DNA from: Phage NC-G
Length of the DNA: 64,000 nucleotides
Sequence record: MK310184
Reading direction: 5' to 3' (one strand)
Part shown: positions 22,429 to 24,969 of the stretch, piece after piece
Layout: each line of letters starts with the position of its first letter
How positions within the stretch are numbered: the first letter of the stretch is position 1
The notes under the pieces: model-generated
What the model saw: the letters and a program-made list of their open reading frames with translations, nothing else
Told to the model about the DNA's origin: nothing
Database searches by the model: none
Position numbers and translations under genes: made by a program

Positions 22429-22800
22429 TTATTCCTTAAAGTGAGCTTTCAGCATCTGGTAAACTGTCCAGGCTTCAGAATTATTAGAGATAGTGATTTT
22501 AGTCAAAGGGAAATCACTCGGTTCCGATGGGCCCACGTCTTCGCATTCATCTTCAGTATCGTCATCTTTTTCTTCTTCAAAGAAACGACGCTCATCTTTC
22601 TTTATGAATAGGCTCGTAAATTCACCAGTTGATAATTCCATTTTATACACATCACCATCTTCAATTCTGACTGGTCTAAATCCCTCGCCATTGATTATAG
22701 TATTGGCTATATTATCATTATCTGTACATAGCAAACGGAATTTGCTTTCAGCATCATTATCTTTAAAATAATACCACTTATCAGTTTCAAATTTGGTCAT
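22429..22800 (-). CDS. Hypothetical acidic protein
   Basis: Start placed at MTKFETDKWYY after a ribosome-binding site; track ORF extends upstream. Confidence 0.45.
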   Translation of the reverse strand: MTKFETDKWYYFKDNDAESKFRLLCTDNDNIANTIINGEGFRPVRIEDGDVYKMELSTGEFTSLFIKKDERRFFEEEKDDDTEDECEDVGPSEPSDFPLTKITISNNSEAWTVYQMLKAHFKE

Positions 22801-23011
22801 TATAAGTTTCCTTCCAGAAGTCGGTGCCTTCAGCAGTGATTTCACGGAACACTGCATAGATAGGATTTTTATCACCTTGATTTTTGTATACATAAACCGA
22901 CGATAAATGAGAAAATGTATCAGAATGTTCCTTTTGAACCACGATTAAATCAGGGTTGAACAGAACGTCTTCAAATTCTTCACGGGTCGAGTTCACGGTA
23001 ACTTTAGCCAT
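22787..23011 (-). CDS. Hypothetical early protein
   Basis: 74-aa ORF. Confidence 0.45.
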   Translation of the reverse strand: MAKVTVNSTREEFEDVLFNPDLIVVQKEHSDTFSHLSSVYVYKNQGDKNPIYAVFREITAEGTDFWKETYNDQI

Positions 23012-23084
23012 TTTATTTTCCTCTCATTTGTTGATAGGGTAATCTTATCACTACCCTATATTGTTGTACACTACTTTTTAAACT

Positions 23085-23588
23085 TTATGCACGATGAATA
23101 TTGGCATACTCGACGATAAAGCTTTCAGGAACCACCTTAAAGGTTCCAAGGAACACGATGTTATAGAGCTTAACGCCTTCTTCAACCCACTGGTCAGTGA
23201 TGTACCCAGACATGCTAGTGGTTTCGTAAGTACCAAACTCTCCATCAATATATTCAAACGGTTTATGTGAAACGAAAAAGACGCCTTGACCTAATTTCCA
23301 TTTGAAATCAACACCAACATGAGACTGATCGATGGTTTCAACTTCTTCAACTACAGGAGCGACACATCCAGTAAATTCAGTTGATTCCAGGAATTTAGAA
23401 CGCACGTAGCCGAATTGTGTTTCCGTCTGGCCATTTTTAGGAATAATACGTACTTTTACTTCAGCGTTTTCAGGTCTGACACCTTCTTTAAGTTGAATAC
23501 TAACAACTTCAACTAAACGGCCTGCAGCTTTTGAACGAGATTGTTTGGATACGCGAACGATACCACCGATATCGGAAATAGTAATCAT
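23085..23588 (-). CDS. Hypothetical protein, paralog A (motB region)
   Basis: 167 aa; C-terminal ITDQWVEEGVKLYNIVFLGTFKVVPESFIV is shared with the next gene. Confidence 0.5.
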   Translation of the reverse strand: MITISDIGGIVRVSKQSRSKAAGRLVEVVSIQLKEGVRPENAEVKVRIIPKNGQTETQFGYVRSKFLESTEFTGCVAPVVEEVETIDQSHVGVDFKWKLGQGVFFVSHKPFEYIDGEFGTYETTSMSGYITDQWVEEGVKLYNIVFLGTFKVVPESFIVEYANIHRA

Positions 23589-23630
23589 AATTTTTCTCTC
23601 TTGGTTAAAGGTTTATTCTCCATGAGAGCC

Positions 23631-23659
23631 ATTATAACATGGCTCTCGATAAAGTAAAC
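23631..23659 (-). promoter_or_regulatory. Early promoter cassette
   Basis: GTTTAC, 17 nt, TATAAT; inverted repeat GAGAGCCAT / ATGGCTCTC flanks the -10. Confidence 0.6.
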
Positions 23660-23661
23660 TA

Positions 23662-24408
23662 TTAGTTCAAAACATTCACAACTGCACTACGAGGTACTAC
23701 ACTAAAATCACCTGCATGGACTACGTTCAGGAGCTCGACACCATCTTCAATCCATTGGTCTGTTACCCACCCACAGATAGGATTATCAAAAGGACGACGG
23801 ACGCTTACTGGCTTACACAACAAATCGGACGGGTCTTGTTCTTCAACTTCTTGGAACAGGATTAACTCTGCTTCATAAACCAGGTTTTTCTCTACTTTGT
23901 TATTATCTAACCGGCGGCCGTGGATGACGTAAGATTTGGCAAACCAGTCACTTTTGGTAAATTCTTCAACAATAAATTCGCCTTCGCCAAAAACATCAGT
24001 CAGAGTTTTATGGCCGGAAATCAAGGCCTTAGTTTTAATTTCAGGTTCAACCAGTTTGTAGGTTTTGCCGATTTCAATAGTGGTAGTCATAGTAGGTTCC
24101 TTAATTTCCAGTGGTTTAACAGGGCATACATAAGTGCTTACAACATCAAAATCGATAAGCTGCTTTGGAGCTAAACGAATAAAGGCAGCCATTTCTCGTT
24201 GCGACAATCGAATAGTATGGATCCCGGGTCCGCCGCATTCTTGAACTGTTACAGATTTAATATTATCAAGCTCATCAGGTCCAATAGAAAGAATACGAAA
24301 TTCATTGCCTTTAGTCATCTTTTTAAGGATATCATAAGCTTGGTTGTAGAGCTTAAGTTCAGCGTACGGGGTAACGATGTATTTGGCATTCAGATCAAAA
24401 GTATTCAT
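23662..24408 (-). CDS. Hypothetical protein, paralog B
   Basis: 248 aa; C-terminal VTDQWIEDGVELLNVVHAGDFSVVPRSAVV. Confidence 0.5.
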   Translation of the reverse strand: MNTFDLNAKYIVTPYAELKLYNQAYDILKKMTKGNEFRILSIGPDELDNIKSVTVQECGGPGIHTIRLSQREMAAFIRLAPKQLIDFDVVSTYVCPVKPLEIKEPTMTTTIEIGKTYKLVEPEIKTKALISGHKTLTDVFGEGEFIVEEFTKSDWFAKSYVIHGRRLDNNKVEKNLVYEAELILFQEVEEQDPSDLLCKPVSVRRPFDNPICGWVTDQWIEDGVELLNVVHAGDFSVVPRSAVVNVLN

Positions 24409-24914
24409 AATTGTCTCATTTCAATAAAATCTACGAGTTCAGCATGGGATTTGCGGAACATTACTTGGTGGTCACCAATGACAACCTCATCTTCAGGTAT
24501 TTCGTAAACAGCAAGATAGAATCCTTTAGAAGATAATTCTTCTCGCTCTTCATGACTGAACCAGCGCATCATATCATACTCACTGGCAAAAGCAAAATGA
24601 TAGAGGTGAACAAACCAACTAGGTATATAGTTATCTACACCATTATAATCAGGGCGACCCCACTTAGTATTAATTGCTCTATTAGAATTCGCAACCAACA
24701 ATTTATCTTGGGATGGTACCGGGATATTTTTAGTATTGCTATGATGGTGTCTAAAATCAGGTTTATTATAACCCGCTTCTAATAACCATCCTTCACTCCA
24801 CTCGTCGAATAATCCGCTATATGGTGTTAACTGACGACTCGCCTGTCTGGTGATTGCGATAGCGTTTCTGTCATCTAAAACACTGAATGATGATTCAACT
24901 CTATAAATTTTCAT
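24405..24914 (-). CDS. Hypothetical early protein
   Basis: 169-aa ORF. Confidence 0.5.
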   Translation of the reverse strand: MKIYRVESSFSVLDDRNAIAITRQASRQLTPYSGLFDEWSEGWLLEAGYNKPDFRHHHSNTKNIPVPSQDKLLVANSNRAINTKWGRPDYNGVDNYIPSWFVHLYHFAFASEYDMMRWFSHEEREELSSKGFYLAVYEIPEDEVVIGDHQVMFRKSHAELVDFIEMRQL

Positions 24915-24940
24915 TTTGTTCTCCTCATGTTGATAGGGCT

Positions 24941-24969
24941 ATAGTATCATGTCATGAGGAGAAGTAAAC
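24941..24969 (-). promoter_or_regulatory. Early promoter cassette
   Basis: GTTTAC, 17 nt, TACTAT; flanked by inverted repeat CTCCTCATG / CATGAGGAG. Confidence 0.6.

What the first reader, a model, noticed from the sequence alone, without database searches (positions are those of the whole stretch)
23085..24408. Adjacent paralogs sharing a conserved ~35-aa C-terminal domain
The 167-aa and 248-aa proteins have unrelated N-terminal regions but end with near-colinear ITDQWVEEGVKLYNIVFLGTFKVVPESFIV and VTDQWIEDGVELLNVVHAGDFSVVPRSAVV. This suggests a shared binding module fused to different effector domains in the host-takeover (motB) region.
Basis: seen in the sequence. Interest (0 to 1): 0.4.

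Follow-up and report, generated by a model that had tools for sequence, protein, structure and literature searches.

The report
Phage MotB and MotB.1 shared domain
The two neighbouring genes are the early genes motB and motB.1 of a T4-like phage, and their shared C-terminal domain is real and old but was already published in 2021, so this is a correct but ordinary finding.

Summary
The minus-strand ORFs 23085-23588 (167 aa) and 23662-24408 (248 aa) share a colinear C-terminal stretch: 19/40 identical, BLASTP E=1e-11, z=16 against shuffles. They are motB (Pfam PF17613, 214 bits) and motB.1 (PHROG 2333) of a Dhakavirus; MotB is 100% identical to that of phage NC-G.

With diverse profiles the homology extends to the whole C-terminal domain: MotB 98-161 against MotB.1 196-246, hhalign 99.5%, E=1e-22. 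AlphaFold2 predicts five strands with a short turn between strands 4 and 5, an SH3/Tudor-like pattern. Third-codon identity is only 32%, and the same pair occurs in T4 and about 780 phage records, so the duplication is ancient and maintained.

The N-terminal domains differ: a basic KOW-like barrel in MotB, an LSm-like barrel in MotB.1. This phage's MotB.1 also carries an extra module of about 80 aa at its N-terminus.

Son et al. 2021 (PMC7827196) already described the shared C-terminal domain, and Kim et al. 2025 (PMC12152347) the LSm-like domain. What the shared domain does is still untested. I infer a common partner-binding or oligomerisation role rather than the DNA-binding surface, because the domain is acidic. 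Novelty: already known. Interest is low.

The parts
23085..23588 (-). motB CDS (167 aa, stop codon included)
   Evidence: Pfam PF17613 'motB', 213.8 bits, covering aa 4-164. PHROG 1671, E=1.7e-69. 100% identical to 'transcriptional regulator [Phage NC-G]'. Annotated as motB in Dhakavirus VR5 and IME08 at the syntenic position.
23379..23588 (-). MotB N-terminal domain, aa 1-70: basic small beta-barrel, KOW-like according to the literature
23316..23378 (-). MotB inter-domain linker, aa 71-91, predicted disordered and variable in length
   Evidence: pLDDT below 50 for residues 71-91. Relatives carry a 21-aa insertion here; these are the 183-191 aa variants.
23106..23297 (-). MotB copy of the shared C-terminal domain, aa 98-161
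   Evidence: hhalign of diverse MotB-type against MotB.1-type C-terminal domains: 99.5%, E=1.4e-22, 51 columns. AF2 strands 102-115, 119-136, 139-146, 149-154 and 158-161, with pLDDT 81-91.
23100..23219 (-). MotB highly conserved core, aa 124-163 (TSMSGYITDQWVEEGVKLYNIVFLGTFKVVPESFIVEYAN)
   Evidence: BLASTP E=1e-11. hhalign 99.3%, E=4.9e-20. Family-wide near-invariant D132 Q133 W134 E136 G138 K140 L141 Y142 N143 F146 G148 V152 E155.
23631..23658 (-). Promoter-like site in the 73-nt gap between motB.1 and motB (TTTACT, 16 nt, TATAAT, with TG)
   Evidence: Consensus scan, 10 of 12 matches with an extended -10. This is a pattern match only, and the number of sites in the region is no higher than in shuffles.
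23662..24408 (-). motB.1 CDS (248 aa, stop codon included)
   Evidence: PHROG 2333, E=2.2e-79. Pfam PF17613, 34.1 bits (cut-off 25) over aa 208-243 only. Annotated MotB.1 in VR5, IME08 and T4 at the syntenic position. 67% identical to T4 MotB.1 over aa 171-248.
23671..23823 (-). MotB.1 copy of the shared C-terminal domain, aa 196-246
   Evidence: hhalign 99.5%, E=1.4e-22. AF2 strands, in true numbering, 200-203, 211-221, 224-231, 234-239 and 243-245, with pLDDT 58-72.
23665..23784 (-). MotB.1 highly conserved core, aa 209-248 (NPICGWVTDQWIEDGVELLNVVHAGDFSVVPRSAVVNVLN)
   Evidence: BLASTP. C212-S241 is almost entirely invariant in 25 homologues that are 66-91% identical overall (the numbering in those outputs is one lower because Met1 was left out).
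23836..24090 (-). MotB.1 LSm-like (SH3-topology) domain, about aa 107-191, orthologous to the N-terminal domain of T4 MotB.1
   Evidence: PHROG 622, the GoF-N-terminal family, E=4.3e-6 for aa 110-192. The same family is hit by T4 MotB.1 aa 1-88 and by the window's GoF. The AF2 pattern is strand-helix-three strands-helix-strand, pLDDT 81-89. LSm-like assignment in PMC12152347.
24166..24408 (-). Extra N-terminal module of this phage's MotB.1, aa 1-81, absent from T4 MotB.1
   Evidence: Found only in the 241-250 aa class of homologues. No PHROG or Pfam hit of its own. AF2 gives helix, three strands, helix at pLDDT 58-73. Not significantly similar to the LSm-like module (hhalign E=0.26).
24405..24914 (-). 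motB.2 (169 aa), upstream neighbour; its stop codon overlaps the motB.1 start (ATGA)
   Evidence: PHROG 1106, E=5.5e-50. Annotated MotB.2 in VR5 and IME08. The overlap is visible in the sequence. It is genomic context and does not carry the shared domain.

Best explanation
These are motB and motB.1, two adjacent early genes conserved in T4-like phages (Tevenvirinae). They descend from an ancient duplication or domain shuffle. What survives in common is one small all-beta C-terminal domain, about 51 aa in MotB.1 and about 64 aa in MotB, with a nearly invariant 40-aa core: G-[YWF]-[IV]-[TS]-D-Q-W-[VI]-E-[DE]-G-x-[KE]-L-[YL]-N-[IV]-V-x-x-G-x-[FY]-x-V-[VI]-P-[ER]-S.

This domain always sits at the C-terminus, behind interchangeable N-terminal small barrels:
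- a basic KOW-like barrel in MotB;
- one or two LSm-like barrels in MotB.1. In this phage MotB.1 has an orphan 80-aa module followed by one LSm-like barrel.

Shown by others for T4 (not tested here):
- MotB binds DNA non-specifically.
- MotB changes how H-NS sits on DNA.
- MotB de-represses H-NS-silenced host genes when overexpressed.
- MotB doubles burst size.
- Loss of motB.1 has no laboratory phenotype.

Inferred here, at about 0.35-0.4 on its own: the N-terminal barrels supply the nucleic-acid contact (DNA for MotB, possibly RNA for MotB.1). The shared acidic C-terminal barrel is a common protein-contact or self-association module that brings both paralogues to the same partner or to each other. 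It is probably not the DNA-binding surface.

The stated confidence applies to the identity, architecture and age of the pair, not to this mechanistic inference.
For: Identity and synteny.

Homology of the C-terminal domains:
- BLASTP E=1e-11.
- hhalign 99.3% and 99.5%.
- Pfam motB model above its cut-off in MotB.1.
- Foldseek of the MotB model finds BFVD MotB.1 models at E 3e-5 to 2e-4.

Ancient and maintained:
- Nucleotide identity of the core is 54%, but only 32.5% at third codon positions. Only 8 of the 19 identical residues use the same codon.
- T4's own pair shows the same 50% identity.
- 781 phage records hold 1686 copies, usually 2-3 per genome.
- Mosigvirus has three tandem copies.

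Restricted family, always C-terminal, with shuffled N-termini:
- Only 37 representatives among 1.84 billion proteins.
- These include hybrids with a MotB-type N-terminus and a MotB.1-type C-terminal domain.

Fold:
- Both models give five strands with a short helical turn between strands 4 and 5.

Charge argument:
- The MotB N-terminal domain has pI about 10 across the family.
- The MotB.1 C-terminal domain has pI 4.3 (net -7) and the shared core has net -2 to -4.
- Whole MotB.1 has pI 4.6-5.1.
- T4 MotB's basic character lies in its N-terminal domain.

Other:
- T4 MotB.1 runs as monomer plus dimer (PMC12152347).
- There is a reciprocal fixed charge swap: MotB K140/E155 against MotB.1 E225/R240.
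Against: - No experiment assigns any activity to the shared domain.
- Son et al. 2021 interpret the MotB C-terminal domain as a cold-shock-like OB fold that could itself bind DNA.
- Small SH3/Tudor-like barrels often bind nucleic acids, and the conserved aromatic residues could stack on bases.
- I could not superpose the isolated domains. The fold searches report no aligned ranges, and every domain in these proteins is a small barrel, so the Tudor-like assignment of the C-terminal domain is not secure.
- pLDDT of the MotB.1 C-terminal domain is only 58-72.
- The MotB.1 pull-down in T4 recovered no obvious partner. That protein carried a C-terminal tag and was mostly insoluble.
- The charge swap amounts to about two evolutionary events and proves nothing statistically.
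Confidence: 0.85

Rival explanations
1. The shared C-terminal domain is the nucleic-acid-binding part, an OB-fold or cold-shock-like domain as proposed by Son et al. 2021. MotB and MotB.1 would then both bind DNA or RNA through it, with the N-terminal domains modulating specificity or partners.
For: - HHpred assignment of T4 MotB residues 69-149 to the OB / eIF5A C-terminal fold (PMC7827196).
- The core has conserved aromatic residues: W134, Y/F/W129 and F150.
- MotB copurifies with DNA (PMC6070864).
Against: - The domain is acidic to neutral. The MotB.1 C-terminal domain has pI 4.3, the core has net -2 to -4, and the T4 MotB C-terminal part has net +1. The MotB N-terminal domain has pI about 10.
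- Neither AF2 model has a helix between strands 3 and 4. Both have a turn between strands 4 and 5, which is the SH3-like pattern, not the canonical OB pattern.
- Pfam scans of isolated C-terminal domains hit only PF17613, even at E up to 10.
Confidence: 0.3
2. The shared domain is a hetero-dimerisation interface. MotB and MotB.1 would pair through their C-terminal domains, coupling a DNA-binding barrel to an RNA-binding-type barrel.
For: - The genes are adjacent and both are early genes.
- Two positions are fixed with reciprocal charges: MotB K140/E155 in 13 of 18 MotB-type sequences, against MotB.1 E225/R240 in 19 of 19 MotB.1-type sequences.
- T4 MotB.1 shows a dimer band.
Against: - The swap could equally be an internal salt bridge that changed polarity.
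- Klebsiella T4-like phages and phage T2 show only one copy in the phage search (rows H61, H62, H65).
- A motB knock-down halves burst size, but a motB.1 deletion has no phenotype.
- No co-purification has been reported.
Confidence: 0.12
3. The similarity is a recent partial duplication or gene conversion between neighbours, without functional meaning.
For: The two genes are adjacent and only the 3' ends are similar.
Against: - Third-codon identity is 32.5% and the longest exact nucleotide run is 7.
- The same level of divergence is seen in T4.
- Both copies are conserved across genera.
- The core is the most conserved part of each protein.
Confidence: 0.01

Closest known systems
T4 MotB (Pfam PF17613, 'Modifier of transcription'; Patterson-West et al. 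2018, PMC6070864; Son et al. 2021, PMC7827196)
   Same: The 167-aa protein is a full-length orthologue: 214 bits over the whole model, the same position between cef and motB.1, and the same two-domain layout of basic N-terminal barrel, linker and C-terminal barrel.
   Different: - The sequences of the two clusters that, judging by their size and names (Shigella sonnei, Tevenvirinae), hold the T4-type MotB are about 60% identical to the window's (P0180-P0182).
- The window protein is acidic overall (pI 5.5), whereas T4 MotB has pI 9.2. The N-terminal domain stays basic.
- The linker lacks the 21-aa insert seen in VR5 and JS98.
T4 MotB.1 (PHROG 2333; 'Category 2' of Son et al. 2021; LSm-like family of Kim et al. 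2025, PMC12152347)
   Same: - Same C-terminal domain: 67% identity over aa 171-248.
- Same LSm-like domain family: PHROG 622 hits both.
- Same position upstream of motB.
   Different: The window protein is 248 aa against 143 aa in T4. It has an extra N-terminal module of about 80 aa and a conserved 25-aa linker before the LSm-like domain. Relatives also occur as forms of about 180 aa, and as 251-aa forms with two sequence-similar tandem modules of this type, judged from the sequences only.
SH3-topology small beta-barrels (Tudor / chromo / PWWP 'Royal family', KOW)
   Different: - No sequence-level relationship is detectable.
- It is not known which domain of the models produces the hits.
- An aromatic cage or a methyl-lysine-type ligand has not been examined.
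OB-fold / cold-shock domain (published assignment for the MotB C-terminal domain)
   Different: The predicted element order fits the SH3-like pattern rather than the canonical OB pattern, and the domain is acidic.

Membership tests
Pfam PF17613 (motB) | Whole-protein score above the curated gathering cut-off of 25 bits | tested here: met
   MotB scores 213.8 bits and MotB.1 scores 34.1 bits. The isolated C-terminal domains score 77 and 37.8 bits.
Pfam PF17613 (motB) | Match over the full 162-position model, including the N-terminal basic barrel | tested here: met
   For the 167-aa protein the match covers aa 4-164 on model positions 2-159. For MotB.1 this feature is not met: only aa 208-243 match, on model positions 118-153. 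MotB.1 is therefore a partial member, through its C-terminal domain only.
MotB.1 family (PHROG 2333) | Sequence match to the family profile, and a position immediately upstream of motB and downstream of dexA/motB.2 | tested here: met
   E=2.2e-79 for aa 78-248. Synteny with VR5, IME08 and T4.
Tevenvirinae LSm-like fold family (GoF / MotB.1 / Frd.2; Kim et al. 2025) | Bent five-stranded antiparallel sheet of SH3/LSm topology in the domain that precedes the C-terminal domain | tested here: inconclusive
   - MotB.1 aa 110-192 matches PHROG 622, the family of the GoF N-terminal domain, at E=4.3e-6.
- The AF2 model gives strand-helix-three strands-helix-strand at pLDDT 81-89.
- No domain-level superposition was possible.
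OB-fold (cold-shock-like) for the shared C-terminal domain | Five-stranded barrel with a helix or long connection between strands 3 and 4 | tested here: inconclusive
   - Both AF2 models connect strands 3 and 4 by a 2-residue turn and place a short helical turn between strands 4 and 5.
SH3-like / Tudor small barrel for the shared C-terminal domain | Five strands with a 3-10 turn between strands 4 and 5, and structural match to known members | tested here: inconclusive
   - The secondary-structure pattern is met.
- The other domains are also small barrels and no aligned ranges are reported.
KOW motif (MotB N-terminal domain) | Sequence match to the Pfam KOW model | tested here: not met

The most novel reading that the evidence does not exclude
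The shared C-terminal barrel could be a phage-specific Tudor/Royal-family-like reader domain. Its invariant aromatic and acidic residues (G-[YWF]-x-x-D-Q-W-x-E) would dock both MotB and MotB.1, and the hybrid forms found in other T4-like phages, onto one common target. That target could be a host nucleoid protein such as H-NS/StpA, or the other paralogue. The interchangeable N-terminal barrels would then bring DNA (KOW-like) or RNA (LSm-like) to that target. MotB.1 would be an RNA-side counterpart of the H-NS-modulating MotB.
Probability: 0.1. Interest if true: 0.55.

Novelty: already known. Interest (0 to 1): 0.15.

Why it matters
MotB is one of the few T4 'non-essential' early proteins with a measured effect: it binds DNA, remodels H-NS on DNA, and doubles burst size. 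Knowing which of its two domains does what would explain how T4-like phages deal with the host nucleoid. It would also show why a second protein, and sometimes a third, carries the same C-terminal domain.

The finding itself adds nothing to what Son et al. 2021 and Kim et al. 2025 published. This analysis adds four small points:
- the boundaries of the shared domain;
- evidence that the domain is acidic and SH3-like rather than an obvious DNA-binding OB fold;
- the very small size of the family (37 representatives at 50% identity among 1.84 billion proteins);
- the extra N-terminal module in this phage's MotB.1.

Tried and rejected
- **PDB sequence searches** with both proteins gave nothing meaningful; the best E-values were 1.6 and 0.036, on unrelated proteins.
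- **Pfam scans of six isolated C-terminal domains** at E up to 10 hit only PF17613. One sequence also gave a sub-threshold DUF2797 hit.
- **Is the extra N-terminal module of MotB.1 (aa 1-81) a duplicate of the LSm-like module?** By eye the patterns look similar, and the AF2 element order is similar. However, hhalign gives E=0.26 and probability 0.2%, so I do not claim it.
- **N-terminal domains of MotB against those of MotB.1:** no similarity, E 0.6-0.8.
- **Long multi-repeat hits of the exhaustive HMM search** (450-4400 aa). These are phage tail-fibre proteins with repeats of the type 'LSGYATEQWVEDK', and Ig-repeat proteins with 'GYQWQKNGV'. They match only 16-25 profile positions, several times each. 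I judged them to be short-motif resemblance amplified by repetition, not homologous domains.
- **Fold searches** could not be restricted to one domain and give no aligned ranges. I could therefore not decide which domain produces the Tudor/KOW hits.
- **Numbering.** Alignment A1 and the MotB.1 model omit Met1, so residue numbers are one lower than the true MotB.1 numbering used in this report.

Full report
**1. What is there**

The window is part of a T4-like phage of the genus Dhakavirus.
- The stretch 22900-24950 is 94% identical to Escherichia phage VR5 and 87-91% identical to other Dhakavirus genomes.
- The 167-aa protein is 100% identical to a protein of 'Phage NC-G'.
- The gene order on the minus strand is gene 39, 39.1, 39.2, goF, cef, motB, motB.1, motB.2, dexA, dexA.1, dda. 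This is the T4 early, 'dispensable' region.
- ORF 23085-23588 (167 aa) is MotB: Pfam PF17613, 213.8 bits, full length; PHROG 1671, E=1.7e-69.
- ORF 23662-24408 (248 aa) is MotB.1: PHROG 2333, E=2.2e-79.

**2.

- BLASTP aligns MotB 124-163 with MotB.1 209-248 without gaps: 19/40 identical, 27/40 similar, E=1e-11.
- The best 40-aa ungapped score is 111, against 18.7 +/- 5.6 in 2000 shuffles.
- In a six-frame search of the whole window, each C-terminus finds only the other, so there are exactly two copies here.
- The Pfam motB model itself scores 34.1 bits on the MotB.1 C-terminus, above its 25-bit cut-off.

**3. Extent and fold of the shared unit**

- With profiles built from close homologues, hhalign gives 99.3% probability and E=4.9e-20 over 39 columns.
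- With more diverse members, taken from an exhaustive HMM search, the confident alignment grows to 51 columns. It pairs MotB K98-Y161 with MotB.1 L196-V246, with a 13-residue loop insertion in MotB (99.5%, E=1.4e-22).
- Some MotB.1-type proteins in other phages carry the long loop too, so the insertion does not define either paralogue.
- AlphaFold2 models (MotB mean pLDDT 75.7, C-terminal domain 81-91; MotB.1 mean 67.9, C-terminal domain 58-72) give the same element order in both C-terminal domains. There are five strands, a tight turn between strands 3 and 4, and a short helical turn between strands 4 and 5. That is the SH3-like small-barrel pattern rather than the canonical OB pattern.
- The C-terminal domain is the only domain the two proteins share, which hints that it produces those hits. 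The other domains are also small barrels and no aligned ranges are given, so I treat the fold assignment as probable, not shown.
- Foldseek of the MotB model against predicted viral structures recovers MotB.1 models at E 3e-5 to 2e-4.
- Isolated C-terminal domains hit no Pfam family other than PF17613, and no PDB sequence.

**4. Age and distribution**

- The two copies of the core are 54% identical in DNA but only 32.5% identical at third codon positions.
- Only 8 of the 19 identical residues use the same codon, and the longest identical run is 7 nt.
- This rules out a recent duplication or gene conversion. It also rules out constraint at the nucleotide level.
- T4's own MotB and MotB.1 show the same relationship: 19/38 identical, E=9e-12.
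- A tblastn search with the MotB.1 C-terminal domain finds 781 phage records with 1686 copies, usually two or three per genome. Hosts include Escherichia, Shigella, Yersinia, Salmonella, Klebsiella, Enterobacter and Citrobacter.
- A Mosigvirus has motB.1 followed by two motB genes in tandem.
- The core is the most conserved part of each protein. In MotB.1 it is almost invariant from C212 to S241 across homologues that are otherwise 66-91% identical.

**5. Architecture of the family**

An HMM of the two window C-terminal domains, scored against 1.84 billion representative proteins, finds only 37 with E <= 0.001. In all of the small ones (about 100-250 aa; one is a 43-aa fragment) the module lies at or within about 15 residues of the C-terminus. 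The N-terminal parts vary:
- The MotB-type basic barrel.
- One LSm-like barrel (T4 MotB.1, 143 aa).
- An LSm-like barrel behind a 40-aa leader (about 180 aa).
- Two sequence-similar tandem modules of this type (251 aa, VR25 type), judged from the sequences only.
- The window type (241-250 aa), with an orphan module of about 80 aa, a conserved linker and one LSm-like barrel.
- Hybrids with a MotB-type N-terminus and a MotB.1-type C-terminal domain.

The window's LSm-like module (aa 110-192) matches PHROG 622 at E=4.3e-6. The window's GoF and the N-terminal domain of T4 MotB.1 match the same family. This agrees with the GoF/MotB.1/Frd.2 LSm-like family of Kim et al. 2025.

The longer hits in that search are tail-fibre and Ig-repeat proteins that match a 16-25-residue motif repeatedly. 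I regard them as spurious.

**6. What is known**

Son et al. 2021 (PMC7827196) state the following:
- One gene may have arisen by duplication of the other.
- The homologues fall into four categories, including a 29-aa remnant.
- The MotB N-terminal domain is predicted to be KOW-like and the C-terminal domain to be an OB fold.

Experimentally, T4 MotB:
- binds modified and unmodified DNA without sequence specificity;
- copurifies with H-NS and StpA in the presence of DNA;
- alters H-NS footprints;
- up-regulates 75 host genes when overexpressed, about a third of them H-NS-controlled;
- is toxic to E. coli;
- doubles burst size.

T4 motB.1 can be deleted without a phenotype. Its product runs as monomer and dimer, and it had no effect in an RNA-stability reporter assay. 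A full-text search for 'MotB.1' finds only these two papers. No domain-level experiment exists.

**7. How it probably works**

Shown: the architecture and conservation described above.

Inferred: the basic character that would explain non-specific DNA binding sits in the MotB N-terminal domain. Its pI is 10.1 here, 9.75 in T4, and the family mean net charge is +5.6. The shared domain is acidic or neutral:
- MotB.1 C-terminal domain: pI 4.3, net -7.
- Shared core: net -2 to -4.
- T4 MotB C-terminal part: net +1.

Whole MotB.1 has pI 4.6-5.1. I therefore think the shared barrel is more likely a common protein-contact or self-association module than the DNA-binding surface, with the N-terminal barrels contacting nucleic acid. 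I put this at about 0.35-0.4.

The published alternative, a nucleic-acid-binding OB fold, stays at about 0.3.

A curiosity that could bear on this is a reciprocal charge swap. MotB has K140 and E155 (13 of 18 MotB-type sequences) where MotB.1 has E225 and R240 (19 of 19). This could be an internal salt bridge of reversed polarity, or a complementary heterodimer contact. It amounts to about two evolutionary events and cannot be tested statistically.

**8. Verdict**

The labels 'binding module' and 'effector domains' are unproven. The feature is already described in the literature. Interest is low. The only local peculiarity is the longer, three-module MotB.1 of this phage.

Noticed in passing
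window 24166-24408 (-), MotB.1 aa 1-81; linker 24091-24165: This phage's MotB.1 is 248 aa, against 143 aa in T4. It has an extra N-terminal module with no PHROG or Pfam match. AF2 gives helix, three strands, helix at pLDDT 58-73. Only about a dozen 241-250 aa homologues in the 5.8-billion-protein search carry it. Similarity to the LSm-like module is not significant (hhalign E=0.26).
   Followed up: partly
window 24091-24110 (-), just before MotB.1 codon M106: An in-frame ATG (M106) is preceded by AAGGA at a 7-nt spacing. It corresponds to the annotated start of the 141-aa MotB.1 of phage PP01 and of T4-type MotB.1. A shorter product consisting of the LSm-like domain plus the C-terminal domain might therefore also be made from an internal start. 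M106, K97, P98 and L99 are invariant in 25 homologues.
   Followed up: no
window 24405-24408 (-): The motB.2 stop codon and the motB.1 start codon overlap (ATGA), which suggests translational coupling of the 169-aa MotB.2 and the long form of MotB.1.
   Followed up: no
protein P0249 (43 aa, from the representative search); compare window 24405-24914 and 23665-23751: A 43-aa protein in public data joins the first ~14 residues of MotB.2 (MKIYRVESSFS.LD) directly to the last 29 residues of MotB.1. It looks like a deletion remnant, and resembles the 29-aa 'Category 3' peptide that Son et al. report in RB69.
   Followed up: partly
proteins P0236-P0238, P0241, P0242, P0245, P0246, P0250 (other T4-like phages): These are hybrid proteins with a MotB-type basic N-terminal barrel, the MotB.1-type linker motif (D.D..S.Y..P) and a MotB.1-type C-terminal domain (ELLN...PRS). 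This suggests domain shuffling between the two paralogues. Some also carry the long loop insertion otherwise typical of MotB.
   Followed up: partly
proteins P0248, P0251, P0256, P0257 (phage tail-fibre proteins, Pfam Phage_tail_C): Tail-fibre repeats of the type 'LSGYATEQWVEDKHYITG' resemble the MotB core 'MSGYITDQWVEEGVKLYN' closely enough to pass Pfam's motB cut-off in one case (29.3 bits). I judged this to be short-motif resemblance, but did not examine it structurally.
   Followed up: partly
window 23085-23588 (-), whole MotB: The window's MotB is acidic overall (pI 5.46, net -4), whereas T4 MotB is basic (pI 9.23). Only the N-terminal domain keeps the basic character. Across the family, whole-protein pI ranges from 4.6 to 9.5. 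Strong non-specific DNA binding shown for T4 MotB may therefore not carry over unchanged to all orthologues.
   Followed up: partly
window 22429-22893 (-) and 22787-23011 (-): The longest goF ORF (154 aa from the first ATG) overlaps cef by about 107 nt. VR5 annotates a 131-aa GoF. The real start is probably the internal Met before 'TKFETDKWYYF', where the PHROG 622 match begins (aa 32).
   Followed up: no
locus L003 5680-7119 (Mosigvirus, E. coli O157 typing phage 6): There are three tandem genes carrying the shared domain: motB.1 (164 aa), motB (151 aa) and a second, shorter motB (139 aa). Copy number of the module therefore varies between genera.
   Followed up: partly
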